Assembly (NCBI GenBank): GCA_965247125.1
Contig: CBDFGO010000003.1
Location: 6,058 to 70,057, forward strand
Length of the DNA: 64,000 nucleotides
Source: Rhodothermales bacterium
Lineage (GTDB): Bacteria; Bacteroidota; Rhodothermia; Rhodothermales; UBA10348
Reading direction: 5' to 3'
Each line of letters starts with the position of its first letter. Position 1 is the first letter of the stretch. Made by a program: the position numbers and the translations under genes. The notes under the pieces are model-generated. The model had not been told where the DNA came from. It saw only the letters and a list, made by a program, of their open reading frames with translations, and did not search any database. Positions 8,210-41,796 of this stretch are shown piece by piece.

Positions 8210-9593
8210 GAGCTATGCCCAAAAGTTGTGTATGGAAGGTTTAGGCAGCGTGTCGTTCTGATGTAATTCCGTCGGTGAATTTGATTCCTTTTTTTACAAG
8301 TTGCAATAGGTGCGGTGCATTCAGTTTCCTCCACTTCTTCTGAGCCTCTTTACATAGACGGAAGGCCATTGCAAGAGCTGTTTCTCGGCTCAGACATCCC
8401 CTCGTTTTGGCGGTCCTGAGGCGCACGGTCGCGAACGTAGATTCGATCGGATTTGTGCTCCGAAGATGGATCCAGTGTTCTGCCGGAAAGTCATAAAAAG
8501 CGAGCAGTTCTTCTCGGTCTTTCACCAGAATCTCTGCTGCTTTCGGATACTTTTGCTGGTAGGCTTTGATGAAAAACAGAAGGGCGCTCTCTGCCTGCTT
8601 TTTTGTTTCTGCTGTATAGATCTGCGTGAGGTGACCTTTTGCCTTCTTCTGAACGGACTTGGGCAGGCGGTTGAGCACATTTGCTGTCTTGTGCACCCAA
8701 CAGCGTGCGGCTCGCGTCTCGGGATAAACTTCTGCGAGAGCACTCCAGAATCCCATGGCTCCATCGGCAACAGCCAGCTTCGGTCCTTGATCCAGCCCGC
8801 GGTGCCTCAGCTCCAGGAGCAACTCTCGCCACGACTGCTTGCTCTCGCGAAAGCCGTCCTCGAGTGCTATAAGCTCCTTCCTTCCATCGGCCGTAGCGCC
8901 GATCACGACCAGCAGACACAGTTTCTGTTTATCCATGCGTACGTTTACGTGAATACCGTCGGCCCAGAAATAGACGTAGTGCTTCTCCTTCAGGCTCCGC
9001 TTTTGCCAGTCTTCGTGCTCCCTTGTCCAAAGCGTCTTCAGGCGCGCAATCGTCGAGGAGGTCAGCCCTGGGGCATCAGGACCAACAAGGGCCGAGAGCG
9101 CTGCCTCAAAGCCGCCCGTTGAAACTCCCTTCAGGTACAACCATGGAATGAGAGCCTCAAGCGAGCGGCTCTTGCGGAGGTAGGCTGGTAGTATCGAACT
9201 GCGGAAACCGATTCTATCCTCACCCCGACCCGTACGGTCGCGTATGCGGGGCATCTTTACAGCGACCTCCCCGATACCAGTCAAAATCTTCCTCTCTGGC
9301 AGATATCCATTGCGAACGATGCGGTGGCGATTCTCTTCGTCGCGCAGGAACTGGTAGCGCTGGCAGAAAGCTTCAACCTCGGCCTCAACGGCTGTGGCCA
9401 GCATCTTTGCGGCCCCTGTTCGCAATACTTCTGTCAACACATCCTCTGTGCTATTGTAGTTCTCGTTCTCGTGTGCGTTATTCGTCTTCATGGGCGGTGT
9501 ATCCTCCAATCTTCGGATTGACAATGACGTAATCATCATCAGGATACGCCGCCTATACCTTTTTCACCCGTACACAACTTTCGGGGTTAACTC
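8210..9593 (-). mobile_element. IS256-family IS, copy 1, inserted into the terminus of IS3-A2.
   Basis: 1384 bp. Imperfect 26-bp IRs: GAGCTATGCCCAAAAGTTGTGTATGG versus the reverse complement GAGTTAACCCCGAAAGTTGTGTACGG. A 9-bp target duplication AACTGGACA flanks both sides. Confidence 0.9.
8241..9539 (-). CDS. IS256-family (mutator-type) transposase, 432 aa.
   Basis: Mutator-type core: LLVVIGATADGRKELIALEDGF...WRELLLELRHRGL...LAVADGAMGFWSALAEVYPETRAARCWVHKTANVLNRLPK. Confidence 0.9.
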   Translation of the reverse strand: MMITSLSIRRLEDTPPMKTNNAHENENYNSTEDVLTEVLRTGAAKMLATAVEAEVEAFCQRYQFLRDEENRHRIVRNGYLPERKILTGIGEVAVKMPRIRDRTGRGEDRIGFRSSILPAYLRKSRSLEALIPWLYLKGVSTGGFEAALSALVGPDAPGLTSSTIARLKTLWTREHEDWQKRSLKEKHYVYFWADGIHVNVRMDKQKLCLLVVIGATADGRKELIALEDGFRESKQSWRELLLELRHRGLDQGPKLAVADGAMGFWSALAEVYPETRAARCWVHKTANVLNRLPKSVQKKAKGHLTQIYTAETKKQAESALLFFIKAYQQKYPKAAEILVKDREELLAFYDFPAEHWIHLRSTNPIESTFATVRLRTAKTRGCLSRETALAMAFRLCKEAQKKWRKLNAPHLLQLVKKGIKFTDGITSERHAA

Positions 9594-10848
9594 AACTGGA
9601 CAGGGTCTTAGGTGGAATCTTGCGGATTGATTATGCTGCTTCTTGAAGCGGCTGGTGATTAAAAAATACGTGATCAGGGGTCTTTCTTCCATGTGAGCTG
9701 TGTCGCCTTTCGTTATTGAAGTAGTCGAAGTATACAGCAATGGATTTGCGGGCTTCAGCCACACTGTCATAGGCTTTAAGGTACACCTCTTCATATTTCA
9801 GGCTACGCCACAGACGTTCAACGAACACGTTGTCCATCCAGCGTCCTTTGCCATCCATAGAGATTTTGATGTCATGATTCTTCAGCACATCAGTAAAGGC
9901 CACGGATGTGAACTGGCTGCCCTGATCCGTATTGAAGATCTCTGGCGCTCCATACACGGCGATTGCTTCTTCGAGCGCTTCCACACAGAAGTCGGTGTCC
10001 ATCGTATTGGAGATCCGGCGTGAGAGTACTTTTCGGCTGTACCAGTCGATGACGGCGACCAGGTAAACGAATCCCCTTTTCATCGGAATGAATGTGATGT
10101 CGCTTGCGTAAACCTGCCGGGGCCGCGTCACGTTGAGCTTACGCAAGAGATACGGATAAATCTTGTGACCCTTTCCCGGAATCGAGGTCCGTTTCTTAGG
10201 ATAAATGGCAATAAGGCCCATCAGACGCATTAATCGCCGGATTCGATGGCGGCCCACAAAAATACCTCTGTCCTCGAGCGCATCCTTCATGGTGCGCGAT
10301 CCTCGCGTGGGCCGCTCAAGGTAGAGCTCATCCAGTTTTTTCATCACGGCCAGGTTCTCTTTGCTCTCGCCCACCGGCTTGTAGTAGGCCGTTGAGCGAT
10401 TCAGCTCCAGCAGATTGCACTGCCGTTTGATGGAGAGGTCGTGGATTGGGTCGATCATTTGGCGGCGCTCACCTACTGGGTGCGACCGAGCGCTTTGGAT
10501 AAAAAATCCTTCTCCATCGAAAGCTCGCCAATCTTGGCGCGAAGCTCCTTGATCTGGCCCTCCTCGTTGTGCTTTCTGGAATGCCCTTTGTCAAAGACCT
10601 CTTCAGCGTCCTGAATCAATTTCTTCTTCCAGGTCTGAATCTGATTCGGGTGCACCTGGAATTGGTCTGCCAACTCGGCCATCGTGCGGTCTCCCTTAAC
10701 CGCCGCCAGTGCTACTTTTGCTTTGAAGGCATTGCTGTGATTTCTTCTTTTGCGACTCATCGTTTGTAGCCTTTCTTGAGGGTGATGAGATCGCAAGATT
10801 CCACCTATAATCAGAGCCAGGCTGTCCAGTCAAACGGGACCATCTCTC
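9594..10848 (-). mobile_element. IS3-family copy A2. Its other terminal 25 bp lie at 8185-8209, separated from the body by the IS256 copy-1 insertion.
   Basis: orfB 9631-10458 and orfA 10473-10796 are nearly identical to copy A1 (P/S and Y/H differences). The element terminus AGAGATGGTCCTATAAAACTGGACAG appears on both sides of the IS256 with the duplicated AACTGGACA. Confidence 0.85.
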
Positions 10849-10882: not shown

Positions 10883-12161
10883 TGACCTTACTCCCATAAA
10901 GTGGACAGGTAGTTAAGCGTACTTTGCATCAATACAGAGGTACGCAATGGGAACGAGAAGGAAGTATTCCAAAGAGTTCAAACTGGAAGCCGTCCAGTTA
11001 GCTGAGATCAGTGGCAACACGAGTCAGACGGCCAGGGAATTGGGCATCAATGCCGGATTGATCAGGCGTTGGAAGCAGCGATTCGAAGAGGATGGTAAAC
11101 GAGCGTTTCCCGGGCACGGTACTCCTCGTGATGAGGAACTCGTCAAACTCCGCAAAGAGCTCAGACGGGTCAAAGAGGAGAACATCGTTCTAAAAAAAGC
11201 CGCCGGTATTTTCAGCAGAGACCTTCGATGAGATACCGGGTTGTGGACGAAGTAAGAGGGTTGGTGCCAGTCGTGCGAGCGTGTACGTTTATGCGGCTAT
11301 CGCCGAGCGGGTATTACGCATGGAGGGGACGCGCACTGAGTATTCGAGAGCATGAAAACCGTGGACTGTTGATTCAGATTCAAACGATTCACCGGGCCAG
11401 CAGGGGTACGTATGGCGCTCCGCGAGTGCATGCCGAGCTTCGCGCTCAAGGCGTCGCGGTAGGGCGTCGTCGCGTGGCTCGTCTGATGCAGCAGAACGGG
11501 ATTAAGGCGCTCAGGCGCCGCAAGAGGCGTGTACAGGCTCCATCCGCTCCTCTTGAGGCTATCAAGGCCAACGTGCTGGATCGTCAATTCATGCCTGACA
11601 GGCCAGGCGCCGTGTGGACAGCCGACATTACATATTTACCGACGGCTGAAGGATGGCTTCGGCGATTTTCTATCGCCGATGGCTGTCGTGCTGGATTTGT
11701 ACTCACGCCGAGTCGTTGGATGGTCAGTACGTCCCTCTCTCGCAAAAGAACTTGCCACCAACGCGCTTCAGAACGCGATTGAGCATCAGCGGCCACGGGC
11801 AGGGCTAATTCATCATTCGGATCGAGGTAGCCAGTACACGAGCTATGAGTACCAACGAATGCTGCGGCGCGAAGGGATCACCATCTCGATGAGCAGGAGC
11901 GGATCCTGTCACGACAATGCTCCAACCGAGAGCTTCTTCGGGACACTCAAAACGGAGATGCACCTTCGAGGAGATCCATTCAATTCACATGCTGAAGCAA
12001 AACGAGGACTCTTCGAATATATCGAGGTTTTCTACAATCGCCAACGTCGACACTCAACCCTTGGATACCAGACGCCGATGGAATTTGAACAACACTATAT
12101 TAACCAACAAACCACCGCAGTGTAGGCTTAATCAACTGTCCAGAAAACCGGAGTAAGGTCA
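10883..12161 (+). mobile_element. Second IS3-family element (IS3-B). Its orfB is frameshifted, so the element is probably inactive.
   Basis: TG...CA termini with IRs TGACCTTACTCC...GGACAG..TTAAG at both ends. orfA spans 10947-11231 (MGTRRKYSKEFKLEAVQL...). orfB is split into two frames (11228-11782 and 11529-12125), with the break near 11650 where VLDLYSRRVVGWS is in the other frame. Confidence 0.8.
11228..12125 (+). pseudogene. IS3-B transposase OrfB, frameshifted.
   Basis: DDE integrase sequence is split across two overlapping frames. Confidence 0.75.
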
Positions 12162-12633
12162 AGACGGTGAGATCGTCGTAGTGTAGTACGGTACTTCTAT
12201 TTGCTAGCAGAGTGTAGTCTTTAAGCTTTGCAAGCACGGGCGTGTAGGCATCCACTGATCCGTGCTGACCTCGATCACGGAACTCCTGGATCCGATTCTG
12301 AAAATCAACGAGGAAGTCGTGTGTTTCAGTATCGGCAGTGCCCTGAACGGCGCGCTTGATCGCAGCGGCCGAAAAATCCTTCCCTTCGACTACGGCATCA
12401 AGAATTGCATCCTCTGCCTTCATCACGATGGACTTCAGGTATGGATTTAGTCTGGCGTGGTGCCGATTCGATTTTCTGATTTCCTTCTGCAGCGGATTCC
12501 AATCCTTTTCCTTGATTCGAACGGGAAGAGCAATCGTCGAGCGCTTACTTCTATGATGGATAACGAGATAAAGAGGAACAGTGCCGTCACGCGTTTTCTT
12601 CCCTCTCCAGGGCACAATACTTATCTTGGCCAT
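12162..12633 (-). pseudogene. Tyrosine recombinase/integrase (Bacteroidota-type N-terminal arm-binding domain), C-terminally truncated by the IS3-B insertion.
   Basis: MAKISIVPWRGKKTRDGTVPLYLVIHHRSKRSTIALPVRIKEKDWNP is homologous to the second integrase at 41797. The ORF tail runs into the IS3-B right end at 12161. Confidence 0.7.
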
Positions 12634-12837
12634 ATGCCAGAAGTTCTATAGAAAAGATGAGTCCAATGACTAAATAGGTGACGTGTAAGGTGACGATTTT
12701 TATCGCTGAAGTCAATATATATAGATTGGTATCACTCGTTATCATCCTAGATATGCTTGAATCTAGCTTAAATCCGACGAAAACCCTGTGAGACCACGTG
12801 ACTGTTGTGTTCCCCCCCCTCTCCGCACCCAGCGAAA

Positions 12838-12868: not shown

Positions 12869-13085
12869 GTGTTGAGCCCGTGAAGCTTGCTTCCAAGGGG
12901 CAACACAAAAAGATCAGGGCGAGCGAAGCTCGCGCGGGGCGTACATTGGTAAGGAGTACCAGGGGCTAACCGAGCGCGAAGCGCGAGGTAATCCCCTCTT
13001 CAATCTGAAAGAAAATCCCTATCTCATCCAATACTCACCACAGTCGACACACAACAAATCCAAATGTGATATGCAGACCGCTTGA

Positions 13086-13140
13086 TCTGCCGACGGATGA
13101 TATGCGGCGAGGATGATATGCCGACGGATGATATGCCGAT
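13086..13140. repeat. Short tandem repeat, about 3 units of GGATGATATGCCGAC.
   Basis: CCGACGGATGATATGCGGCGAGGATGATATGCCGACGGATGATATGCCGATCG. It lies roughly 450 bp upstream of the disrupted integrase and is a candidate set of arm-type or iteron sites. Confidence 0.5.
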
Positions 13141-13339
13141 CGCAGTTGATGCCTTAATCCAAAATCGATTCGCCCGTCCATTTGTGTTAAGCCTTTGTAA
13201 CAGTTACACTTATTTCATCTTCGGATTCGGACGATGGCGTGTATTGCGATATCACTGATCCGCAGAGTAAATGTTCTACAGCACGCCGAAGAACTCGTAT
13301 TGAACCTGGATAATTCTTCGTTCGACTAGGTGGTTACTC

Positions 13340-14104
13340 TCACGTTTTTGGAGTTCCTAACAGCATTCGATGATCGTTTCGTTTTGTCCTTTGATGCATC
13401 CAAAGTGTCGGGCCAATGCCTACGGCCAACTGGGCGAGGAGGAGTGTCCACAAAGGATCATCCCGCAATGCCCAGTGAACGATTGCGGCATACCATTCCG
13501 CTGAGAACATCACTGCGAGGGCAAGAACGAACAGCCTTCTCAATCTTATCGTCCAGACCTTTTCGTCGAGAAGAAAAGGAATCAAGTTGAACAGGGCCAA
13601 ACAACCGATAATGATAAAGTAAATCATTCCCTGCTGGTGCAACGGTCTCCCTGATCGCCAGATTTCTAGAGGCCACGATGCTCGTACGAGAGTGTATCCA
13701 AACGAGTATGCAGAGACTACACCCATCACGAGGGAGAATGATCGACCCACGCCGTACGTGATGACTCCAAATTTAGAGTCATATACGCCCAATTCAGCTT
13801 TGAACAGTGAAAAGTATCTGCGAACGGATCCGGATTTCAGCCACTCTGAGCGATAATCGCATCTAAGTTGAGATTCTGGTCCAACTTGAGCTACCGCTTC
13901 TCGGAATGCATTTTGTTCAGCTACGCCTCGAGCCAGCAGGTTGGAGTAGCAATCCAGTAGATGAGATTCCAGTTCGGCGACGTCGTCATCGCCGTAAAAT
14001 GGGCGAACCTTGAACGGTTTTCTCCATTTTCTCAATTCCGAGATTATGTCAAAGATGGCTTCGTTCCCCACAAATTGTTCAACAACTTGCTCGCCAGATT
14101 CCAC
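13340..14104 (-). CDS. PadR-associated membrane protein, function unknown.
   Basis: The C-terminal half is hydrophobic with at least 3 TM segments. It overlaps the upstream PadR gene by 61 bp, as is common for padR partner genes. Confidence 0.5.
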   Translation of the reverse strand: MESGEQVVEQFVGNEAIFDIISELRKWRKPFKVRPFYGDDDVAELESHLLDCYSNLLARGVAEQNAFREAVAQVGPESQLRCDYRSEWLKSGSVRRYFSLFKAELGVYDSKFGVITYGVGRSFSLVMGVVSAYSFGYTLVRASWPLEIWRSGRPLHQQGMIYFIIIGCLALFNLIPFLLDEKVWTIRLRRLFVLALAVMFSAEWYAAIVHWALRDDPLWTLLLAQLAVGIGPTLWMHQRTKRNDHRMLLGTPKT

Positions 14105-14382
14105 TGCGCTCGTTCGCGCTCTAGTTCTCGAACACCCTTAGTTTTAAGGCGATAATACTTTCTTCGTCGACCATTGTCTGCCGTCCTCCAGGAAGATTGA
14201 ACGAACCCCTGACGTTCAAGACGATGTAGCATAGGATAGATTGCTCCTTCCGCCCACTCAATAGTTTCACCGGAAGCCGTAAATGCCTTTTTAATAATCT
14301 CGTAGCCATAGCTTTCACCTTCAGCTAGTATGGCAAGGACCGCAGGACGAAGTGTCGCAGCTGTCAGGTCTTTACTAAGCAC
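14044..14382 (-). CDS. PadR-family transcriptional regulator.
   Basis: GYEIIKK...GAIYPMLHRLERQGFV...RRKYYRLKTKG is the PadR winged-helix signature. Confidence 0.85.
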   Translation of the reverse strand: MLSKDLTAATLRPAVLAILAEGESYGYEIIKKAFTASGETIEWAEGAIYPMLHRLERQGFVQSSWRTADNGRRRKYYRLKTKGVRELERERAQWNLASKLLNNLWGTKPSLT

Positions 14383-14465
14383 GTCGATACCCTTGTAGTT
14401 CTAGGCATAATATACCTGACACTATTAGGTATGTCAACATTTGATTGTTTGGCGTGCTGTAGAAC

Positions 14466-14580
14466 AAGCGCATGTTGCGGACTCGCACGACTGGCTGAGC
14501 CGGTTGGAAACGATTACTTTCTGAAAGGCGTGCGAATGCTCGCCGCAAGTCCGCCAGCCGTTATATACTCTCTTGAAAAT
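14466..14580. repeat. About 115-bp imperfect direct repeat, copy A. Copy B is at 16572-16686.
   Basis: GCATGTTGCGG(A/G)CTCGCACGACTGGCTGAGCCGGTTGGAAAC...GAATGCTCGCCGCAA(G/A)TCCGCCAGCCGTTAT, about 90% identical. The two copies flank the IS110 element plus higBA. Confidence 0.8.
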
Positions 14581-15860
14581 CAAGCCTTCACAGCGGGTAT
14601 CTGGTAGAATTTCTCTCCTTTAAAAGGAGTTTCGTTCTTGAGCATCCCCAAAATGGAGTGCAGCAGTTTTCTCATGACTGCAACGATGGCCACAAGTGGT
14701 TTTTTGCCCTGGGCGATCAGGTGTTCGTAGAAGGCCATGATGTTGGGCTCCCATTTGATGGCTACGAGTGCGGGCATGTAGAGTGCTCGCCTGAGCTTGA
14801 CGTTTCCCATCTTTGAAATACGCTCACGCTTTGCGACCGAGTCGCCAGAAGTGTATTTGCGAGGATCAAGTCCTGCATGTGCTACCCACTGACGTACGGA
14901 CATGCCATCGGGCAGAATCAAGATTTCTGGCAGAATCATGACAGCGCTTTTCTGTGCAATTCCTCGAATGCTGGTGAGTAGCAGAAATGCGGAATTCATC
15001 TGGTCGTGCCCTTCAATTAAACGAATTGCCTGTTCTAGCATGGCGGCGAGTCTGCGTTCCAGATGTCGAATGTTCACCTCGATGTCATTGATTACGATGG
15101 CTGATGTGGTCACAGTTGCACAGGCTTGGTGCAACCGTGCTTGCTCGCGGGTTCTCTCTGTGGTGAGGGCATGCATGCGGCGCGACATGCCTCTGAGCTC
15201 TAGAATCTCGTCTTTCGGAGGTGTCCAGAGCACAAATACCATGCGGCTTGCAAAATCGGCCAGCATATCGGCATCGACGCGGTCTGTCTTTGATCGGCGC
15301 ATTTGTGCTCGTGCAAACTGACGCGTGGCAGATGGATTGGCTACCATCAGTTCAACAGCGGAACACGAATCAAGGGTCAGCGCGAGGTCGAGACTGTAAT
15401 TGCCCGTTGCCTCGATCACCACACGCACGAACGCTCCAGGCTCCATAATCCACTTGATGAGCTGGCCATGACCTGCTGCGGTATTTAAAAACTGTTTCTG
15501 GCGAGCAGAACGATTTTCTTGGTGGATACATACATCGATCGTCGCCTTGCTTATATCGCAGCCAACAAAGACATTAGTGCACATGAGTCACTCCGGTTTG
15601 TAACGTGAAACGGATAATGATTCCGGTTTCCCATCCCGACCCAGGCGGCGGACATTGTATATGCAGGCTCACAGTATCACGCGAAATGATCCGGGCCTCG
15701 TAAACTCCTCAGCCTTCTGCTTGGGTCAGGCGGGGGGCTGATATAACGGACAGGTTCACTGACAAACAGGACCTAATGCAGCTACAGCCTTCCCCAGAAA
15801 CCTCAACATAACGAGAGGCGGGAAACCGACTGTTTTCTAGATACAATACGGTCTTTGTAA
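14577..15860 (-). mobile_element. IS110-family element. Boundaries are approximate; the stop codon abuts repeat A and a ~300-bp noncoding end lies 5' of the transposase.
   Basis: Transposase 14580-15584 (334 aa) has a DEDD-type N-terminus VGCDISKATIDVC and an IS110/IS116/IS902-type C-terminal domain. No terminal IRs are expected for this family. Confidence 0.65.
14580..15584 (-). CDS. IS110-family (DEDD) transposase.
   Basis: MCTNVFVGCDISKATIDVCIHQ...; C-terminal ...KKPLVAIVAVMRKLLHSILGMLKNETPF. Confidence 0.75.
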   Translation of the reverse strand: MCTNVFVGCDISKATIDVCIHQENRSARQKQFLNTAAGHGQLIKWIMEPGAFVRVVIEATGNYSLDLALTLDSCSAVELMVANPSATRQFARAQMRRSKTDRVDADMLADFASRMVFVLWTPPKDEILELRGMSRRMHALTTERTREQARLHQACATVTTSAIVINDIEVNIRHLERRLAAMLEQAIRLIEGHDQMNSAFLLLTSIRGIAQKSAVMILPEILILPDGMSVRQWVAHAGLDPRKYTSGDSVAKRERISKMGNVKLRRALYMPALVAIKWEPNIMAFYEHLIAQGKKPLVAIVAVMRKLLHSILGMLKNETPFKGEKFYQIPAVKA

Positions 15861-15861
15861 T

Positions 15862-15894
15862 ATGTCAAAATTGACATTATGTCACAAATGACAT
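15862..15894 (+). promoter_or_regulatory. Two adjacent palindromic operators immediately upstream of higB.
   Basis: ATGTCAA-AA-TTGACAT (7-2-7) and ATGTCA-CAAA-TGACAT (6-4-6), ending 10 bp before the higB ATG. Confidence 0.6.
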
Positions 15895-15904
15895 ATATTA
15901 CCGT

Positions 15905-16234
15905 ATGAGTCAAGAAAAACCACTCGTTTGGTTGCATGGTGAGGTGAAATCGCCGCCGTTCTCCAAGAATGCAAGATTGGAGGCTGGTTTTCTACTTCGC
16001 CGGCTTCAAATGGGTGAGAAACTTGAAATGCCGCATTCTAGACCGATGCCCTCGGTTGAGAAAAGGTGTCACGAACTTAGAATCAAGGACGTATATAAGA
16101 CCTGGCGAATCATGTATGCGATCGAATTTGACGCGATCGTGATCTTGGAAGTTTTTCCCAAGAAGACAGGAACTACTCCTAATTTGGTTTTGAACATCTC
16201 TCGAGAGCGTATTCGGTTATATCGATCTTTATAG
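15905..16234 (+). CDS. higB: HigB-like toxin (Gp49/RelE-ParE superfamily).
   Basis: ...LRRLQMGEKLEMPHSRPMP...HELRIKDVYKTWRIMYAIEFDAIVILEVFPKKTGTTP matches the Gp49-like HigB pattern. The toxin-first gene order is typical of higBA. Confidence 0.8.
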   Translation: MSQEKPLVWLHGEVKSPPFSKNARLEAGFLLRRLQMGEKLEMPHSRPMPSVEKRCHELRIKDVYKTWRIMYAIEFDAIVILEVFPKKTGTTPNLVLNISRERIRLYRSL

Positions 16235-16244
16235 AGGTCTAGCC

Positions 16245-16568
16245 ATGAAAGAAGACAAATTAGATAAGCTCAAAGCTGCCGGATGGTCGGTTGGTAACGC
16301 TGCTGAGTTTCTTGGACTCTCTCCTGAAGAAGAGAAGTTTGTCGAGTTAAAGTTGACTTTAGCTGCAGCAATTAAACGACTTCGAAAAGCTAAACGGCTC
16401 ACCCAAGTTGAGCTGGCTAAAAGGATTGGTTCAAGTCAGTCCAGAATTGCGAAGATGGAGTCAGCTGACTCATCAGTGAGTACTGACTTGATGATGAAGT
16501 CTCTTTTTAGCTTGGGAGCATCCCCGTCAGACATCGCAAATTATTTCGGGTCGAGAAAGACCGTATAA
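16245..16568 (+). CDS. higA: HigA-like XRE-family HTH antitoxin.
   Basis: The HTH is LTQVELAKRIGSSQSRIAKME, and the gene lies 10 bp downstream of the toxin. Confidence 0.8.
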   Translation: MKEDKLDKLKAAGWSVGNAAEFLGLSPEEEKFVELKLTLAAAIKRLRKAKRLTQVELAKRIGSSQSRIAKMESADSSVSTDLMMKSLFSLGASPSDIANYFGSRKTV

Positions 16569-16689
16569 CAAGTGCATGTTGCGGGCTCGCACGACTGGCT
16601 GAGCCGGTTGGAAACAGTTACTTTCTGGAAGGGGAGCGAATGCTCGCCGCAAATCCGCCAGCCGTTATGCGCCTTCCAAAATGCTGAAC

Positions 16690-16798
16690 ATGACTGATTG
16701 GACTCTTTCCAATATTCTATTTTTCACCATTCTGCTCGCGGGCTGCAACTCTAATGAGATTACTAACTCCACGGATAGTGATCGGCCGAACGTTTTAT
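16690..16798 (+). pseudogene. Lipoprotein gene 5' fragment truncated by IS256 copy 2.
   Basis: MLNMTDWTLSNILFFTILLAGCNSNE has a signal peptide and lipobox LAGC, then reads straight into the IS256 left end. Confidence 0.5.
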
Positions 16799-18182
16799 GA
16801 GCTATGCCCAAAAGTTGTGTATGGAAGGTTTAGGCAGCGTGTCGTTCTGATGTAATTCCGTCGGTGAATTTGATTCCTTTTTTTACAAGTTGCAATAGGT
16901 GCGGTGCATTCAGTTTCCTCCACTTCTTCTGAGCCTCTTTACATAGACGGAAGGCCATTGCAAGAGCTGTTTCTCGGCTCAGACATCCCCTCGTTTTGGC
17001 GGTCCTGAGGCGCACGGTCGCGAACGTAGATTCGATCGGATTTGTGCTCCGAAGATGGATCCAGTGTTCTGCCGGAAAGTCATAAAAAGCGAGCAGTTCT
17101 TCTCGGTCTTTCACCAGAATCTCTGCTGCTTTCGGATACTTTTGCTGGTAGGCTTTGATGAAAAACAGAAGGGCGCTCTCTGCCTGCTTTTTTGTTTCTG
17201 CTGTATAGATCTGCGTGAGGTGACCTTTTGCCTTCTTCTGAACGGACTTGGGCAGGCGGTTGAGCACATTTGCTGTCTTGTGCACCCAACAGCGTGCGGC
17301 TCGCGTCTCGGGATAAACTTCTGCGAGAGCACTCCAGAATCCCATGGCTCCATCGGCAACAGCCAGCTTCGGTCCTTGATCCAGCCCGCGGTGCCTCAGC
17401 TCCAGGAGCAACTCTCGCCACGACTGCTTGCTCTCGCGAAAGCCGTCCTCGAGTGCTATAAGCTCCTTCCTTCCATCGGCCGTAGCGCCGATCACGACCA
17501 GCAGACACAGTTTCTGTTTATCCATGCGTACGTTTACGTGAATACCGTCGGCCCAGAAATAGACGTAGTGCTTCTCCTTCAGGCTCCGCTTTTGCCAGTC
17601 TTCGTGCTCCCTTGTCCAAAGCGTCTTCAGGCGCGCAATCGTCGAGGAGGTCAGCCCTGGGGCATCAGGACCAACAAGGGCCGAGAGCGCTGCCCCAAAG
17701 CCGCCCGTTGAAACTCCCTTCAGGTACAACCATGGAATGAGAGCCTCAAGCGAGCGGCTCTTGCGGAGGTAGGCTGGTAGTATCGAACTGCGGAAACCGA
17801 TTCTATCCTCACCCCGACCCGTACGGTCGCGTATGCGGGGCATCTTTACAGCGACCTCCCCGATACCAGTCAAAATCTTCCTCTCTGGCAGATATCCATT
17901 GCGAACGATGCGGTGGCGATTCTCTTCGTCGCGCAGGAACTGGTAGCGCTGGCAGAAAGCTTCAACCTCGGCCTCAACGGCTGTGGCCAGCATCTTTGCG
18001 GCCCCTGTTCGCAATACTTCTGTCAACACATCCTCTGTGCTATTGTAGTTCTCGTTCTCGTGTGCGTTATTCGTCTTCATGGGCGGTGTATCCTCCAATC
18101 TTCGGATTGACAATGACGTAATCATCATCAGGATACGCCGCCTATACCTTTTTCACCCGTACACAACTTTCGGGGTTAACTC
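16799..18182 (-). mobile_element. IS256-family IS, copy 2.
   Basis: Same 1384-bp element; the transposase carries an E-to-G substitution (GGFGAAL). No recognisable target duplication. Confidence 0.9.
16830..18128 (-). CDS. IS256-family transposase.
   Basis: 432 aa, identical apart from one substitution. Confidence 0.9.
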   Translation of the reverse strand: MMITSLSIRRLEDTPPMKTNNAHENENYNSTEDVLTEVLRTGAAKMLATAVEAEVEAFCQRYQFLRDEENRHRIVRNGYLPERKILTGIGEVAVKMPRIRDRTGRGEDRIGFRSSILPAYLRKSRSLEALIPWLYLKGVSTGGFGAALSALVGPDAPGLTSSTIARLKTLWTREHEDWQKRSLKEKHYVYFWADGIHVNVRMDKQKLCLLVVIGATADGRKELIALEDGFRESKQSWRELLLELRHRGLDQGPKLAVADGAMGFWSALAEVYPETRAARCWVHKTANVLNRLPKSVQKKAKGHLTQIYTAETKKQAESALLFFIKAYQQKYPKAAEILVKDREELLAFYDFPAEHWIHLRSTNPIESTFATVRLRTAKTRGCLSRETALAMAFRLCKEAQKKWRKLNAPHLLQLVKKGIKFTDGITSERHAA

Positions 18183-18189
18183 ATAAATG

Positions 18190-18553
18190 ACTTAATGTTT
18201 GCCCACGTGCAATAAACCACTTTCTTTCCTGCGAGCTCTGTAGGAAGAGAAATTTTGTCTTTATCGTCCGAGTGTATGTAGATGCCACGCAGACGAATGC
18301 CTTCTTCATTTGCACATTTCATTTCGAATTTTTAACCGCTTGCAGTGCGAGTCTTAGAACTAACCATAACAATAACGCCGTCACATCCTTTAATTCGTGT
18401 CCTGCATTTTTTCTTCCAGTCGGTACTCCAAGGCTGCTTTACAGACATATCGACAAATTCGAAAGGAGAATTTTCATTTCTTGCTTGTCCGCGTAGGTGA
18501 TCGCGGGCACTTTTGTCCGCCATTGCGAAACTAATAAATACTCGTTTTGCCAT
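18190..18553 (-). pseudogene. TIR-like (MTH538/DUF1863-like) small protein with an in-frame stop, clipped by IS256 copy 2.
   Basis: MAKRVFISFAMADKSARDHL...CDGVIVMVSSKT resembles the TIR-like flavodoxin-fold N-terminus. The frame continues after a TAA at 18332 (...NEEGIRLRGIYIH...) up to the IS end. Confidence 0.35.
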
Positions 18554-19420: not shown

Positions 19421-19727
19421 CCGCCCTCTGATTCGGGGTAGAACCCGATGAGTTAGAAGAGTATTTCGGCTCAATCGATTCAAGCTTACACCAGAAACTT
19501 TTTTTAACCGACTCCGCCAGTCGTGCGAACCCTCAGCTTGGTCCCGAAAGAATCCTACTGACAAAAAATGGCACGATTGTACTAGATAATAGGGTTACTA
19601 GTCCTATGCATTTCAAAGCGAAGAATTCTAACATTAAAATTCCGGAGTGGTACTGCCAACCAAAGAAATTACTGGAAAGAAATTGCTGGTTTGAAACACC
19701 TCGTTTGGGAAAGGATCAACGATGCCT

Positions 19728-24014: not shown

Positions 24015-25398
24015 GAGCTATGCCCAAAAGTTGTGTATGGAAGGTTTAGGCAGCGTGTCGTTCTGATGTAATTCCGTCGGTGAATTTGATTCCTTTTTTT
24101 ACAAGTTGCAATAGGTGCGGTGCATTCAGTTTCCTCCACTTCTTCTGAGCCTCTTTACATAGACGGAAGGCCATTGCAAGAGCTGTTTCTCGGCTCAGAC
24201 ATCCCCTCGTTTTGGCGGTCCTGAGGCGCACGGTCGCGAACGTAGATTCGATCGGATTTGTGCTCCGAAGATGGATCCAGTGTTCTGCCGGAAAGTCATA
24301 AAAAGCGAGCAGTTCTTCTCGGTCTTTCACCAGAATCTCTGCTGCTTTCGGATACTTTTGCTGGTAGGCTTTGATGAAAAACAGAAGGGCGCTCTCTGCC
24401 TGCTTTTTTGTTTCTGCTGTATAGATCTGCGTGAGGTGACCTTTTGCCTTCTTCTGAACGGACTTGGGCAGGCGGTTGAGCACATTTGCTGTCTTGTGCA
24501 CCCAACAGCGTGCGGCTCGCGTCTCGGGATAAACTTCTGCGAGAGCACTCCAGAATCCCATGGCTCCATCGGCAACAGCCAGCTTCGGTCCTTGATCCAG
24601 CCCGCGGTGCCTCAGCTCCAGGAGCAACTCTCGCCACGACTGCTTGCTCTCGCGAAAGCCGTCCTCGAGTGCTATAAGCTCCTTCCTTCCATCGGCCGTA
24701 GCGCCGATCACGACCAGCAGACACAGTTTCTGTTTATCCATGCGTACGTTTACGTGAATACCGTCGGCCCAGAAATAGACGTAGTGCTTCTCCTTCAGGC
24801 TCCGCTTTTGCCAGTCTTCGTGCTCCCTTGTCCAAAGCGTCTTCAGGCGCGCAATCGTCGAGGAGGTCAGCCCTGGGGCATCAGGACCAACAAGGGCCGA
24901 GAGCGCTGCCTCAAAGCCGCCCGTTGAAACTCCCTTCAGGTACAACCATGGAATGAGAGCCTCAAGCGAGCGGCTCTTGCGGAGGTAGGCTGGTAGTATC
25001 GAACTGCGGAAACCGATTCTATCCTCACCCCGACCCGTACGGTCGCGTATGCGGGGCATCTTTACAGCGACCTCCCCGATACCAGTCAAAATCTTCCTCT
25101 CTGGCAGATATCCATTGCGAACGATGCGGTGGCGATTCTCTTCGTCGCGCAGGAACTGGTAGCGCTGGCAGAAAGCTTCAACCTCGGCCTCAACGGCTGT
25201 GGCCAGCATCTTTGCGGCCCCTGTTCGCAATACTTCTGTCAACACATCCTCTGTGCTATTGTAGTTCTCGTTCTCGTGTGCGTTATTCGTCTTCATGGGC
25301 GGTGTATCCTCCAATCTTCGGATTGACAATGACGTAATCATCATCAGGATACGCCGCCTATACCTTTTTCACCCGTACACAACTTTCGGGGTTAACTC
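24015..25398 (-). mobile_element. IS256-family IS, copy 3.
   Basis: Identical 1384-bp element with no target duplication. Confidence 0.9.
24046..25344 (-). CDS. IS256-family transposase.
   Basis: 432 aa. Confidence 0.9.
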   Translation of the reverse strand: MMITSLSIRRLEDTPPMKTNNAHENENYNSTEDVLTEVLRTGAAKMLATAVEAEVEAFCQRYQFLRDEENRHRIVRNGYLPERKILTGIGEVAVKMPRIRDRTGRGEDRIGFRSSILPAYLRKSRSLEALIPWLYLKGVSTGGFEAALSALVGPDAPGLTSSTIARLKTLWTREHEDWQKRSLKEKHYVYFWADGIHVNVRMDKQKLCLLVVIGATADGRKELIALEDGFRESKQSWRELLLELRHRGLDQGPKLAVADGAMGFWSALAEVYPETRAARCWVHKTANVLNRLPKSVQKKAKGHLTQIYTAETKKQAESALLFFIKAYQQKYPKAAEILVKDREELLAFYDFPAEHWIHLRSTNPIESTFATVRLRTAKTRGCLSRETALAMAFRLCKEAQKKWRKLNAPHLLQLVKKGIKFTDGITSERHAA

Positions 25399-26860: not shown

Positions 26861-28244
26861 GAGCTATGCCCAAAAGTTGTGTATGGAAGGTTTAGGCAGC
26901 GTGTCGTTCTGATGTAATTCCGTCGGTGAATTTGATTCCTTTTTTTACAAGTTGCAATAGGTGCGGTGCATTCAGTTTCCTCCACTTCTTCTGAGCCTCT
27001 TTACATAGACGGAAGGCCATTGCAAGAGCTGTTTCTCGGCTCAGACATCCCCTCGTTTTGGCGGTCCTGAGGCGCACGGTCGCGAACGTAGATTCGATCG
27101 GATTTGTGCTCCGAAGATGGATCCAGTGTTCTGCCGGAAAGTCATAAAAAGCGAGCAGTTCTTCTCGGTCTTTCACCAGAATCTCTGCTGCTTTCGGATA
27201 CTTTTGCTGGTAGGCTTTGATGAAAAACAGAAGGGCGCTCTCTGCCTGCTTTTTTGTTTCTGCTGTATAGATCTGCGTGAGGTGACCTTTTGCCTTCTTC
27301 TGAACGGACTTGGGCAGGCGGTTGAGCACATTTGCTGTCTTGTGCACCCAACAGCGTGCGGCTCGCGTCTCGGGATAAACTTCTGCGAGAGCACTCCAGA
27401 ATCCCATGGCTCCATCGGCAACAGCCAGCTTCGGTCCTTGATCCAGCCCGCGGTGCCTCAGCTCCAGGAGCAACTCTCGCCACGACTGCTTGCTCTCGCG
27501 AAAGCCGTCCTCGAGTGCTATAAGCTCCTTCCTTCCATCGGCCGTAGCGCCGATCACGACCAGCAGACACAGTTTCTGTTTATCCATGCGTACGTTTACG
27601 TGAATACCGTCGGCCCAGAAATAGACGTAGTGCTTCTCCTTCAGGCTCCGCTTTTGCCAGTCTTCGTGCTCCCTTGTCCAAAGCGTCTTCAGGCGCGCAA
27701 TCGTCGAGGAGGTCAGCCCTGGGGCATCAGGACCAACAAGGGCCGAGAGCGCTGCCTCAAAGCCGCCCGTTGAAACTCCCTTCAGGTACAACCATGGAAT
27801 GAGAGCCTCAAGCGAGCGGCTCTTGCGGAGGTAGGCTGGTAGTATCGAACTGCGGAAACCGATTCTATCCTCACCCCGACCCGTACGGTCGCGTATGCGG
27901 GGCATCTTTACAGCGACCTCCCCGATACCAGTCAAAATCTTCCTCTCTGGCAGATATCCATTGCGAACGATGCGGTGGCGATTCTCTTCGTCGCGCAGGA
28001 ACTGGTAGCGCTGGCAGAAAGCTTCAACCTCGGCCTCAACGGCTGTGGCCAGCATCTTTGCGGCCCCTGTTCGCAATACTTCTGTCAACACATCCTCTGT
28101 GCTATTGTAGTTCTCGTTCTCGTGTGCGTTATTCGTCTTCATGGGCGGTGTATCCTCCAATCTTCGGATTGACAATGACGTAATCATCATCAGGATACGC
28201 CGCCTATACCTTTTTCACCCGTACACAACTTTCGGGGTTAACTC
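26861..28244 (-). mobile_element. IS256-family IS, copy 4.
   Basis: Identical element, same orientation as copy 3, with no target duplication. Confidence 0.9.
26892..28190 (-). CDS. IS256-family transposase.
   Basis: 432 aa. Confidence 0.9.
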   Translation of the reverse strand: MMITSLSIRRLEDTPPMKTNNAHENENYNSTEDVLTEVLRTGAAKMLATAVEAEVEAFCQRYQFLRDEENRHRIVRNGYLPERKILTGIGEVAVKMPRIRDRTGRGEDRIGFRSSILPAYLRKSRSLEALIPWLYLKGVSTGGFEAALSALVGPDAPGLTSSTIARLKTLWTREHEDWQKRSLKEKHYVYFWADGIHVNVRMDKQKLCLLVVIGATADGRKELIALEDGFRESKQSWRELLLELRHRGLDQGPKLAVADGAMGFWSALAEVYPETRAARCWVHKTANVLNRLPKSVQKKAKGHLTQIYTAETKKQAESALLFFIKAYQQKYPKAAEILVKDREELLAFYDFPAEHWIHLRSTNPIESTFATVRLRTAKTRGCLSRETALAMAFRLCKEAQKKWRKLNAPHLLQLVKKGIKFTDGITSERHAA

Positions 28245-41597: not shown

Positions 41598-41796
41598 GAA
41601 TGGGCTGACTAAAGAGTGTGGAGCTAAGGAGAGTCGAACCTTATCTCGGTTTCGCGAACGTTTCGCTGGATATCATGCCTATATGGGCGTTACAGAGTGA
41701 AATTTCTCTGGACCGTTTCTAACATATTGCAAATCTAGAAAAAATCCGTCACCTTATCCGTCACCTATTTCATTTAAGTTAACCCCCATTACACCG

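What the first reader, a model, noticed from the sequence alone, without database searches (positions are those of the whole stretch)
14466..16686. IS110-family element plus higBA bracketed by about 115-bp imperfect direct repeats
Repeat A (14466-14580) ends exactly at the stop codon of the IS110 transposase. Repeat B (16572-16686) follows higA and precedes a lipoprotein gene start. They are about 90% identical. IS110-family elements lack IRs and target specific sequences (IS621 targets REP elements). The repeat may therefore be a dispersed target or REP-like sequence with the IS inserted at the edge of one copy. Alternatively it marks the ends of a larger mobilised unit carrying the toxin-antitoxin pair as cargo.
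Basis: seen in the sequence. Interest (0 to 1): 0.55.

Follow-up and report, generated by a model that had tools for sequence, protein, structure and literature searches.

The report
Integron cassette sites hit by IS110
The two ~106-bp repeats are integron attC recombination sites that bound a higBA toxin-antitoxin gene cassette, and the IS110-family element is an RNA-guided insertion sequence that specifically targets the 3' end of such sites, so the arrangement combines two known kinds of mobile DNA with a modest new twist.

Summary
The repeat is real: 14459-14566 and 16563-16670, 92% identical, none expected by chance. It is neither REP-like nor a footprint of the IS.

Related metagenome contigs carry the same unit once after each small gene, co-oriented. 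The first bases of each cassette are the reverse complement of the left end of its own repeat. Reconstituted sites fold as long hairpins. An orthologous higBA cassette (L027) has an uninterrupted junction. All of this is integron attC/gene-cassette behaviour.

No intI was found among window ORFs of at least 130 aa. A candidate attI lies at 13067-13273. IS256 copies have scrambled the array.

The IS spans 14565-15847 (1283 bp). In 11 distinct related junctions its right end abuts attC sequence (ATAACGG, one variant ATAAAGG) and its left flank varies. It sits in the R' core (GTT-AT|RC), 2-4 nt from the integrase crossover and antisense to the array.

Its 263-nt 5' leader is a structured RNA with a bridge-RNA-like two-loop layout. 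One loop matches both target halves, and a relative with a different target has a matching guide change.

This differs from the known IS1111-attC group, which has a 3' RNA and inserts near the attC 5' end. I call it a new variant of a known kind, of modest interest.

The parts
13067..13273 (+). Candidate attI. A conserved non-coding platform with direct repeats GATATGCNGAC (13068-13140) that ends at the G|TT crossover (GTTCTAC, 13273-13279).
   Evidence: Window 13097-13273 is homologous to L027 ~1240-1445. The homology stops at G|TT, after which the first cassettes differ. Repeats are listed. The function is inferred.
13274..14560 (+). Gene cassette 1. It carries two genes on the opposite strand: PadR regulator 14044-14382(-) and a 254-aa membrane protein 13340-14104(-). 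Its own promoter is at 14437-14409(-).
   Evidence: Pfam PadR and NCBIfam perm_prefix_1. The cassette start GTTCTACAGCACGCC is the reverse complement of 14445-14466 (22 nt, 91%; I2; 12 of 13). The promoter scores 11 of 12.
14459..14566 (+). attC site A (repeat A). R'' is GTAGAAC at 14459-14465. R' is GTTAT at 14560-14564 followed by AT (14565-14566), which is now supplied by the IS end.
   Evidence: With its cognate cassette start it folds into a long hairpin, z = -4.8.
14565..15847 (-). IS110-type insertion sequence, 1283 bp counting one copy of the AT core. In IS orientation the junctions read LT|AT-TGTATCTAG...CAAGAGAGTAT-AT|AACGG.
   Evidence: Similarity to 12 related copies stops exactly at 14565 and 15847. 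The IS is single copy in the window.
14580..15584 (-). Transposase/recombinase, 334 aa.
   Evidence: Pfam DEDD_Tnp_IS110 plus Transposase_20. NCBIfam 'IS110 family RNA-guided transposase', 191 bits against a cut-off of 140. D10, E58, D101, D104 and S246 are invariant in an alignment with IS621, to which it is 36% identical.
15613..15830 (-). Predicted bridge RNA (seekRNA) in the 263-nt leader upstream of tnp. It has two stem-enclosed internal loops.
   Evidence: RNAalifold on 10-11 homologues. 62 pairs, 93% of cells paired, 27 pairs with changes on both sides against 10.9 +/- 2.2 in shuffles (0 of 500) and 6-12 in slid controls. No Rfam family matches.
15776..15784 (-). Left target guide, UAGCUGCAU (5' side of the first loop). 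It resembles the variable cassette-start half plus core (consensus GCNGY-AT).
   Evidence: Guide against left target: L024 7 of 7, L023 5 contiguous, L009 CGUAU against CCGT-AT, window only 4 of 7.
15742..15749 (-). Right target guide, CCGUUAUA (3' side of the first loop). It is the reverse complement of the attC half ATAACGG.
   Evidence: In L023 the guide UGGUAU matches a different flank, ATACCA. In L024 CGUUAU matches ATAACG.
15700..15710 (-). Tentative left donor guide region, GAGGAGUUUAC (second loop). It resembles the IS right end GAGAGTAT-AT.
   Evidence: GGAGU is invariant in 11 homologues while its predicted partner is not. L023 and L024 have GGAGUCU and a right end of GAGAGTCT. The window has one mismatch.
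15654..15660 (-). Tentative right donor guide, AUACAAU. It is the reverse complement of the IS left end ATTGTAT.
   Evidence: It is replaced by a hairpin insertion in L004, L012 and L022, so the assignment is uncertain.
15848..16664 (+). Body of the higBA gene cassette. The cassette is 14561-14564 plus 15848-16664, 821 bp without the IS.
   Evidence: The reconstructed start GTTATACGGTCTTT is the reverse complement of 16555-16569, 12 of 13. An orthologous cassette with an uninterrupted junction is in L027 and L028.
15860..15899 (+). higBA promoter TTGACA-17-TATATT (15871-15899), overlapping two ATGTCA-N4-TGACAT palindromes (15862-15877 and 15879-15894).
   Evidence: Promoter scan, 11 of 12. The palindromes were read from the sequence. 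L027 has one palindrome.
15905..16234 (+). higB toxin, 109 aa.
   Evidence: Pfam Gp49, PF05973. Many homologues are known, one named RelE/ParE-family toxin.
16245..16568 (+). higA antitoxin, 107 aa, Xre-type HTH.
   Evidence: Pfam HTH_3. NCBIfam antitoxin families match below their cut-offs.
16563..16670 (+). attC site B (repeat B). R'' is GTATAAC at 16563-16569 and contains the higA stop codon. R' is GTTATGC at 16664-16670.
   Evidence: Hairpin with the cognate start, z = -3.6.
16665..16793 (+). Start of cassette 3, with a lipoprotein-like ORF (16681-16798) truncated by an IS256-family copy (16794-18187).
   Evidence: Sequence. IS256 inverted repeats (I1). Pfam Transposase_mut. I saw no target duplication when reading the flanks, so a rearrangement is likely.
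19491..19542 (-). Degenerate attC remnant in inverted orientation.
   Evidence: nhmmer E = 8e-7. blastn 81% over 43 nt.

Best explanation
The locus is the start of a decayed integron-type cassette array in an uncultured Rhodothermia-like bacterium. Its layout is: candidate attI, PadR cassette, attC-A, [IS110-type element], higBA cassette, attC-B, lipoprotein cassette (cut by IS256).

The two ~106-bp repeats are attC sites. Each cassette ends in one, so any cassette is bracketed by two. higBA is a promoter-bearing toxin-antitoxin cassette.

The IS is a bridge-RNA-guided IS110-type element. Its 5' leader folds into an RNA whose first internal loop pairs with both halves of the junction between an attC and the next cassette. 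One guide (CCGUUAU) pairs with the conserved attC end ...CCGTT-AT. The other (GCNGCAU) pairs with the variable start of the next cassette. The element therefore inserts in one orientation (antisense to the array) inside the R' core GTT-AT|RC, 2-4 nt from the G|TT point where an integron integrase would cut, sharing an AT core dinucleotide and making no long duplication.

What is shown: the repeat family and its arrays, the cassette-specific boundary complementarity, an empty orthologous site, exact IS ends at the same attC position in independent sites, and a conserved structured leader with target-matching guides.

What is inferred: that an IntI-type integrase (not in the window) moves the cassettes, that the RNA is made and guides the recombinase, and that the nearly intact R' (GTTATAT) now lets IS plus higBA behave as one 2104-bp cassette.
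For: Arrays. In L004 the repeat occurs after each of five successive small genes, plus a partial copy at the contig end, all co-oriented, 0.38-1.6 kb apart and independent of the IS. Further copies are in L005, L012, L016, L018, L022 and L027.

Cassette logic. The bases that follow G|TT at the start of each cassette are the reverse complement of the left end of that cassette's own repeat. Cognate pairs match at a mean 8.5 of 13 positions (12 of 13 for both window cassettes). Non-cognate pairs match at a mean 4.8, maximum 8, n = 56.

Empty site. L027 holds an orthologous higBA cassette (89% nt identity). Its junction is uninterrupted (GCCAGCCGTT-AT-GCGGTCTT), it follows a different upstream cassette, and it shows a compensatory change: start GTTATGCGG with R'' CCGCATAAC, against the window's GTTATACGG with CCGTATAAC.

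Inner stem. TTGCGG/CCGCAA is kept by double changes in L009 (TTACGG/CCGTAA) and L016 (TATACGG/CCGTATA).

Folding. Sites rebuilt with their cognate cassette start fold as long hairpins, z = -3.6 to -5.2, with 0 of 200 shuffles as stable.

attI. A conserved platform is shared with L027 and ends at G|TT.

IS ends. Similarity to 12 relatives stops at 14565 and 15847. The right flank is always ATAACGG (one variant, ATAAAGG) and the left flank is variable.

Leader RNA. 27 pairs covary against 10.9 in shuffles. The right target guide matches ATAACGG and co-changes with the flank in L023 and L024. The left target guide matches 7 of 7 in L024.

Enzyme. The DEDD and Ser residues are conserved with IS621.

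Literature. attC sites share only the cleavage triplet, are 57-141 bp long, and are highly similar within sedentary arrays (PMC5371416). TA cassettes with their own promoters are typical of such arrays (10.1101/2022.08.03.502626). IS110-type elements carry the guide RNA upstream of tnp (PMC11187229, PMC11208160). A complete integron is known in Salinibacter ruber (10.1101/2022.02.28.482270).
Against: No integron integrase was found among the window's ORFs of 130 aa or more or in any fetched locus, so the recombinase that moves the cassettes is unidentified.

Only two intact attC copies and one remnant lie in the 64-kb window.

In their linear context the repeats do not fold better than shuffles (z = -0.8 to -1.4).

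The spacer between the R and L stems (9-10 nt) is longer than in classical attC sites, and extrahelical bases could not be assigned.

The outer stem extends to 11-20 bp, which is unusual.

No attC covariance model (IntegronFinder) could be run.

The window's own left target guide matches its left flank at only 4 of 7 positions.

The donor guides are ambiguous.

Expression of the RNA is untested.
Confidence: 0.82

Rival explanations
1. The repeat is a REP- or MITE-like dispersed intergenic element that the IS110 element uses as a target, as IS621 uses REP elements. It has no connection with integrons.
For: The IS does use the repeat as its target. IS110-family elements are known to target REPs (PMC11187229, PMC11208160). 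No intI is in the window.
Against: The repeat is not dispersed in the window: two copies 2.1 kb apart plus one remnant in 64 kb. A 21-mer scan of 185,579 species genomes gave only three chance hits. In relatives it occurs once per gene, co-oriented. REP or MITE models do not predict the cassette-specific complementarity between each cassette start and its own repeat. They also do not predict the same higBA unit in a different array context.
Confidence: 0.06
2. The cassette array is integron-like but is serviced by a non-IntI tyrosine recombinase. One candidate is the Bacteroidetes-type integrase whose truncated gene (12100-12633, minus strand) lies divergently about 430 bp from the candidate attI.
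For: The position and orientation of the recombinase gene mimic intI-attI geometry. No canonical intI was found in any locus. The attC has an atypically long spacer and outer stem.
Against: L027 has the same attI-like platform with no recombinase within 1.15 kb upstream. A 47%-identical paralogue at 41797-42693 has no platform repeat motif near it. The protein has an arm-binding domain typical of integrative-element integrases. A canonical integron is reported in Salinibacter (10.1101/2022.02.28.482270). All fetched arrays run off contig ends on the upstream side, so the absence of intI says little.
Confidence: 0.07
3. The repeats are the ends of a composite unit (IS110 plus higBA) created or moved by the IS itself. 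They could be a long target duplication or IS-associated terminal repeats, with the TA pair as cargo.
For: The IS and higBA lie together between the repeats. In L004 and L005 a related IS also sits next to a higB-like TA pair.
Against: The IS ends lie well inside the interval and are the same in 12 copies. Those copies have unrelated left flanks and no second repeat at a fixed distance. The TA pair in L004 belongs to a different HigB family, PF05015 rather than PF05973. The higBA cassette exists without the IS. The repeats occur around genes with no IS. IS110-family insertion makes no long duplication (PMC11187229).
Confidence: 0.02
4. The repeat is a duplicated regulatory region, terminator, UTR or small-RNA gene of paralogous neighbours, unrelated to mobility.
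For: Both copies are intergenic. Repeat B directly follows higA, as a terminator would.
Against: The flanking genes are unrelated. There is no Rfam match. No terminator-like site lies in either repeat. The family recurs after many unrelated genes.
Confidence: 0.02

Closest known systems
attC sites and gene cassettes of sedentary chromosomal integrons (for example Vibrio cholerae repeats), and CALINs (clusters of attC sites lacking an integron integrase)
   Same: The sites are ~108 bp with ...AAC at the left and GTT... at the right. They carry an internal imperfect inverted repeat and occur once per cassette, co-oriented. Identity within the lineage is high (80-92%). The crossover at G|TT is shown by boundary complementarity. 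The array includes TA and defence-type cassettes (Mrr, Abi and ThsB-TIR fragments).
   Different: No intI was found in the window. The unpaired spacer is 9-10 nt. The outer stem extends 11-20 bp into cassette-specific sequence. The host is an uncultured Rhodothermia-like lineage. The array is reduced to two or three sites and broken by IS256 copies.
IS1111-attC group (ISPa21, ISPst6, ISKpn4, ISPa25)
   Same: These are DEDD-transposase insertion sequences that insert site-specifically and in one orientation (antisense to the array) into attC sites. Targeting is by an element-encoded RNA.
   Different: Those elements have the non-coding RNA region downstream of tnp and insert near the 5' end of attC (PMC11187229, PMC3001079). 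This one has a 263-nt region upstream of tnp and only 15 nt downstream. It inserts in the 3' R' core. Its transposase is at most about 36% identical to any named plasmid-borne family member, and the closest named relative is IS621.
IS621 and IS110-type bridge-RNA (seekRNA) elements
   Same: The leader upstream of tnp folds into two internal loops in the order target loop then donor loop. The left guide is identical to left target plus core, and the right guide is complementary to core plus 4-5 nt. A core dinucleotide is present at both junctions. The DEDD and Ser residues are conserved.
   Different: The core is AT rather than CT. The target is an integron attC/cassette junction rather than a REP. 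Transposase identity is 36%. No Rfam model matches. The donor guides are not securely assigned.
Group IIC-attC introns
   Same: They are another mobile element class that homes to attC sites in antisense orientation (PMC3001079).
   Different: They are ribozyme/reverse-transcriptase retroelements that insert near the attC 5' side. No such features are present here.
higBA and other TA cassettes of chromosomal integrons
   Same: The gene order is toxin first. The toxin is a RelE-fold Gp49-type HigB and the antitoxin an Xre-HTH protein. The cassette has its own promoter overlapping palindromic operators and is followed by an attC.
   Different: Nothing notable, apart from a duplicated operator palindrome relative to the L027 orthologue.

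Membership tests
Integron attC site | Conserved cleavage triplet: ...AAC (R'') at the left end and GTT... (R') at the right end. | tested here: met
   winA has GTAGAAC and GTTAT. winB has GTATAAC and GTTATGC. Eight of 9 aligned family members show AAC and GTT. The exception, L004_2364, has AAT and TTT.
Integron attC site | R'' pairs with the R' formed in the circular cassette, so the first bases of a cassette complement the left end of its own attC (crossover at G|TT). | tested here: met
   Cognate pairs match at 8.5 of 13 (window 12 of 13, twice) against 4.8 for non-cognate pairs. The window and L027 orthologues show a compensatory change.
Integron attC site | Internal imperfect inverted repeat (L''/L'). 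| tested here: met
   TTGCGG/CCGCAA, with compensatory variants in L009 and L016.
Integron attC site | Extrahelical bases and a short unpaired central spacer in the folded bottom strand. | tested here: inconclusive
   The spacer is 9-10 nt. One T could be extrahelical, but the register is ambiguous. A competing stem ACGGCTGGC/GCCAGTCGT exists.
Integron attC site | Length 57-141 bp, folding as a hairpin. | tested here: met
   The sites are ~108 bp. With the cognate start, z = -3.6 to -5.2. Without it, folding is not significant.
Integron attC site | One site per cassette, co-oriented, downstream of the cassette ORF. | tested here: met
   The L004 array has six cassettes. Multi-copy loci are listed. 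The window has two cassettes plus a truncated third.
Integron attC site | Recognised by the attC covariance model and recombined by IntI. | not testable with these tools
   IntegronFinder and HattCI are not available, and no experiment was possible.
Complete integron | An intI gene next to attI and Pc at the head of the array. | tested here: not met
   No Phage_integrase catalytic domain was found in any of the window ORFs of 130 aa or more that were scanned. The only neighbouring recombinase is a truncated arm-type integrase. A candidate attI is present. The locus is therefore filed as CALIN-like.
IS110 family, IS110 type | DEDD (RuvC-like) N-terminal domain plus Transposase_20 C-terminal domain, with catalytic residues. 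| tested here: met
   Pfam, NCBIfam NF033542 above its cut-off, and D10/E58/D101/D104/S246 invariant.
IS110 family, IS110 type | Long non-coding region upstream of tnp and a short right end. | tested here: met
   263 nt upstream and 15 nt downstream.
IS110 family, IS110 type | Structured guide RNA with a target loop and a donor loop complementary to the target and to the IS ends. | tested here: met
   The structure is supported by covariation. The target guides match and covary with the flanks. The donor guides are only tentative.
IS110 family, IS110 type | Site- and orientation-specific insertion, a shared core dinucleotide, and no long target duplication. | tested here: met
   Eleven distinct junctions are at the same attC position (10, plus the S. 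ruber plasmid). AT is present on both sides. The empty site is GTT-AT-GCGG.
IS1111-attC group | Non-coding RNA region downstream of tnp (IS1111 type). | tested here: not met
   Only 15 nt lie downstream of the stop codon. The criterion is from PMC11187229.
IS1111-attC group | Insertion near the 5' end of attC, antisense to the array. | tested here: not met
   The orientation is antisense (met), but the position is the 3' R' core. The criterion is from PMC3001079.
IS1111-attC group | Transposase monophyletic with ISPa21 and ISPst6. | not tested
The best plasmid-borne relatives are S. ruber (51%), Acidisarcina (45%) and IS621 (35-36%).
Type II TA system higBA | RelE-fold HigB toxin encoded upstream of an HTH HigA antitoxin, with an autoregulated promoter. 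| tested here: met
   PF05973 and PF01381. The promoter and palindromes are and the sequence. Toxicity was not tested.

The most novel reading that the evidence does not exclude
The array is not serviced by a canonical IntI. Instead, Rhodothermia-type cassette arrays (long-stem attC plus a direct-repeat attI platform) would use a different tyrosine recombinase, such as the arm-type integrase truncated at 12100-12633. In addition, the IS110-type element has convergently evolved to insert 2-4 nt from the crossover, so that it is carried and shuffled as part of the next cassette and is shielded from loss when that cassette is a TA module.
Probability: 0.08. Interest if true: 0.75.

Novelty: new variant of a known kind. 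Interest (0 to 1): 0.4.

Why it matters
The finding turns an apparent 'IS plus TA flanked by odd repeats' into a readable integron fragment: attI, two complete cassettes and a third truncated one.

It also shows a lineage of IS110-type, 5'-bridge-RNA elements that is naturally programmed against the integron R' core. That differs in architecture and insertion point from the IS1111-attC group, which suggests that attC targeting arose more than once.

Such elements sit next to the integrase crossover point. They could block or re-wire cassette expression and excision, and could travel as part of a cassette.

The locus gives a ready natural guide/target pair with an AT core, and a natural retargeting example (L023), for bridge-recombinase work.

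Tried and rejected
- A scan of genome contigs with a 21-mer from the repeat gave three hits in unrelated taxa with no similarity beyond the 21-mer, so they are chance matches.
The source genome could not be fetched, although a 100%-identical HigB sits on a 1.58-Mb contig.
- Rfam at gathering and at permissive thresholds gave nothing relevant.
- Folding the repeats in their linear context was not significant. It became significant only when the cognate cassette start was attached.
- RNAalifold on the repeats favoured a stem ACGGCTGGC/GCCAGTCGT. That stem is absent from L009, L016 and L022, so I did not treat it as part of the core structure.
- The donor-loop guides were examined. AUACAAU fits the left end in the window but is replaced by a hairpin in L004, L012 and L022, so the assignment is left tentative.
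- A sigma-70-type promoter across the joined IS ends was considered. By my own reading of the IS end sequences, the -10 candidate matches only 3 of 6, so I make no claim.
- The truncated integrase at 12100-12633 was considered as intI and rejected. It has an arm-binding domain, it has a paralogue without the platform motif, and L027 has no integrase within 1.15 kb upstream.
- The Tetu and Holmes 2008 paper (PMC2447020) is not held. Its content is cited only through PMC3001079 and PMC11187229.


Full report
**Observation.** The region contains a genuine direct repeat pair: 14459-14564 against 16563-16668, 106 nt, 92% identical, 2104 bp apart. A 42-nt core occurs nowhere else in the window and never in shuffles. 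Similarity ends at GTTAT (14564 and 16668). Repeat B begins inside the last codons of higA. Upstream lie a PadR regulator and a membrane protein on the minus strand. Downstream is a short lipobox ORF cut by an IS256 copy.

**What the repeat is.** The source genome is not among the species representatives, and a 21-mer scan gave only chance hits. Contigs encoding close relatives of the transposase were decisive.

- In L004 (transposase 90% identical) the same ~106-bp unit follows each of five successive small genes: SnoaL, two short ORFs, a higB-like TA pair and one more, plus a partial copy at the contig end. All copies are co-oriented, and more divergent units follow the other two genes.
- A profile of the family finds further co-oriented copies in L005, L012, L016, L018, L022 and L027. 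In the window it finds only the two copies plus a degenerate inverted remnant at 19491-19542.
- The units start with ...AAC and end with GTT....
- In every cassette whose two boundaries are known, the bases after G|TT at the cassette start are the reverse complement of the left end of that cassette's own downstream unit. Cognate pairs match at 8.5 of 13 positions on average, and at 12 of 13 for both window cassettes. Non-cognate pairs match at 4.8, maximum 8 (the 22-nt inverted repeat I2 is one instance).

This is the signature of integron cassettes. In the circular cassette, R' is made from the last G plus the cassette's own first bases, and it pairs with R''.

An inner stem TTGCGG/CCGCAA is kept by double substitutions in L009 and L016. 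Rebuilt with their cognate starts, both window sites fold into long hairpins (z = -3.6 to -5.2). In linear context they do not.

These properties agree with published descriptions. attC sites are 57-141 bp, share only the cleavage triplet, and are highly similar within sedentary arrays (PMC5371416). TA cassettes with their own promoters are characteristic of such arrays (10.1101/2022.08.03.502626). Both window cassettes have near-consensus promoters.

**Empty site and array head.** A 94%-identical HigB lies on L027 and L028. There the orthologous higBA cassette (89% nt identity) follows a family attC with an uninterrupted junction, GCCAGCCGTT-AT-GCGGTCTT. The window reads GCCAGCCGTT-AT-[IS]-ACGGTCTT. 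The L027 cassette start GTTATGCGG pairs with its R'' CCGCATAAC, and the window's GTTATACGG pairs with CCGTATAAC, which is a compensatory change. The upstream cassette differs between the two (a 72-aa ORF against PadR), as expected for shuffled cassettes.

Window 13097-13273 is homologous to the region upstream of the first L027 cassette. Both have three GATATGCNGAC direct repeats, GTTACACTTAT and CCGYAGAGTA. The homology ends at G|TT, where the first cassettes diverge. This is what an attI platform would look like.

No integron integrase was found. None of the window ORFs of 130 aa or more that I scanned has a tyrosine-recombinase catalytic domain. The neighbouring gene at 12100-12633 is a truncated arm-type integrase. 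It has a 47%-identical paralogue at 41797-42693, and both are cut by insertion sequences. The locus is therefore best filed as a decayed, CALIN-like array.

The window carries nine full IS256 copies and one cut by the window end. The copy after repeat B has no visible target duplication, which points to rearrangement.

Host markers are a T9SS sorting domain and a MoeB protein 56-59% identical to Salinibacter and Rhodothermales proteins. These place the window in an uncultured Rhodothermia-like lineage. [quoted passage not shown]

**The IS.** Similarity to 12 related copies stops exactly at 14565 and 15847. In IS orientation every copy reads LT|AT-TGTATCT...AAGAGAGT(AT)-AT|AACGG. The right flank is the attC bottom strand (ATAACGGCTGG...). 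The left flank is variable and is the start of the next cassette.

The element therefore lies inside the R' core (GTT-AT|RC), 2-4 nt from G|TT. It is antisense to the array, with an AT core on both sides and no long duplication. After insertion the R' reads GTTATAT. The attC may therefore remain usable, with IS plus higBA forming one 2104-bp unit between attC-A and attC-B. That last point is an inference.

The transposase passes the NCBIfam 'IS110 family RNA-guided transposase' cut-off. It keeps D10, E58, D101, D104 and S246 in an alignment with IS621, to which it is 36% identical. Its best plasmid-borne relative is on a Salinibacter ruber plasmid (51%), which has the same ends and the same right guide.

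**How it finds the site.** The 263-nt leader upstream of tnp is conserved and structured. An alignment of 11 homologues supports 62 pairs with 93% of cells paired. Twenty-seven pairs show changes on both sides, against 10.9 +/- 2.2 in shuffles (0 of 500) and 6-12 in slid controls.

The fold has two stem-enclosed internal loops, which is the layout described for IS110-type bridge RNAs or seekRNAs encoded upstream of tnp (PMC11208160, PMC11187229).

- In the first loop, the 3' side is CCGUUAUA, the reverse complement of ATAACGG (core plus attC half).
- The 5' side is (U)AGCUGCAU, which resembles the left half plus core (consensus GCNGY-AT).
- The guides co-vary with their targets. L023 (57% transposase identity) is inserted at a non-attC site ...CTC-AT-ACCACT, and its guides read CCUCAU and UGGUAU.
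- L024 has GCGGCAU for GGCGGC-AT and CGUUAU for ATAACG.
- L009 and L010 have CGUAU for ...GT-AT.
- The window's own left guide matches its flank at only 4 of 7 positions. This fits the variable nature of cassette starts and the tolerated mismatches reported for natural IS110 elements.

The donor-loop assignments (GGAGUUUAC for the right end, AUACAAU for the left end) are tentative.

**Comparison with known systems.** IS that home to attC are known: the IS1111-attC group (ISPa21, ISPst6, ISKpn4, ISPa25). Those are IS1111-type elements with the RNA region downstream of tnp (PMC11187229), and they insert near the 5' end of attC, also antisense (PMC3001079). The present element has the IS110-type architecture and inserts at the 3' R' core. 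Among plasmid-borne, named family members its closest relative is IS621 (35-36% identity), an IS110-type element. It fails two defining features of the IS1111-attC group while working in a similar way. In the searchable literature, the only paper that holds both 'bridge RNA' and 'attC' is the Durrant paper itself, and its two attC mentions were not opened.

**Verdict.** The repeats are attC sites. The bracketing of IS plus higBA follows from cassette architecture combined with RNA-guided, site-specific insertion at the attC/cassette junction. Each component is of a known kind, and the IS is a new variant. Confidence is about 0.8. The main gap is the missing integrase.

Noticed in passing
window 8241-9539, 16830-18128, 24046-25344, 26892-28190, 42718-44016, 44400-45698, 50461-51759, 52541-53839, 54462-55760, 63268-63963: There are nine full copies and one window-end-truncated copy of a ~1.39-kb IS256-family element (432-aa Mutator-type transposase), near-identical and in both orientations. 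There are also IS3-, IS21- and IS5-like elements. This looks like a marked IS expansion. The copy at 16794-18187 has no visible target duplication, which suggests recombination between copies.
   Followed up: partly
window 13067-13273; L027 1240-1445: A conserved non-coding platform with three GATATGCNGAC direct repeats ends exactly at the G|TT where the first cassette begins. It is shared between the window and L027, although their first cassettes differ. It is a candidate attI.
   Followed up: partly
window 12100-12633 (-) and 41797-42693 (+): Two paralogous (47% identity) Bacteroidetes-type tyrosine recombinase genes (Arm-DNA-bind_5, SAM_5) are each truncated by an IS (IS3-like and IS256). 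Their upstream regions share a 31-nt match (12672-12701 against 41740-41770). The first lies divergently next to the candidate attI.
   Followed up: partly
window 18332-18553 (-) and 19491-19542 (-): A ThsB-like TIR domain fragment (73 aa) lies near a degenerate, inverted attC remnant. It is probably debris of further cassettes inverted by IS-mediated rearrangement.
   Followed up: partly
L023 4722-6035: A 57%-identical relative of the IS sits at a non-attC site (CTC-AT-ACCACTAGC) inside an IS-rich region. Both of its target guides are changed to match, so this is a natural retargeting example.
   Followed up: partly
L004 3088-3675, L005 333-614, L010 2115-3074: Related IS copies also neighbour TA cassettes: a PF05015 HigB-like pair in L004 and L005, and a RES-Xre pair in L010. 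That is three of about nine independent sites. It could be chance, or TA neighbours could stabilise the insertion.
   Followed up: no
L027 2476-2578: The attC after the orthologous higBA cassette departs from the family consensus about 15 nt after R''. A partial ORF runs antisense at the contig end. This may be another element inserted near the attC 5' end.
   Followed up: no
window 15862-15894: The higBA operator palindrome ATGTCA-N4-TGACAT is present twice in tandem in the window and once in the L027 orthologue.
   Followed up: no
L025 (Salinibacter ruber plasmid pSR118, NZ_CP030363.1) 8690-10062: An annotated IS110-family element (51% transposase identity) has the same ends and the same CCGUUAUA guide. 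It is flanked by ATAACGGGCC and by small same-strand hypothetical genes, so the plasmid may carry a cassette array.
   Followed up: partly
window 14565-14584 and 15828-15847: The IS has an imperfect 12-bp subterminal inverted repeat (TATCTAGAAAAC against TCTCTTGAAAAT, 9 of 12) starting 4 nt from each end. This is longer than the 2-3 bp described for IS110-type elements.
   Followed up: no
P0241: A HigB identical to the window's is recorded on a 1.58-Mb contig (NCBI and ENA), probably the source genome. The contig could not be retrieved.
   Followed up: partly
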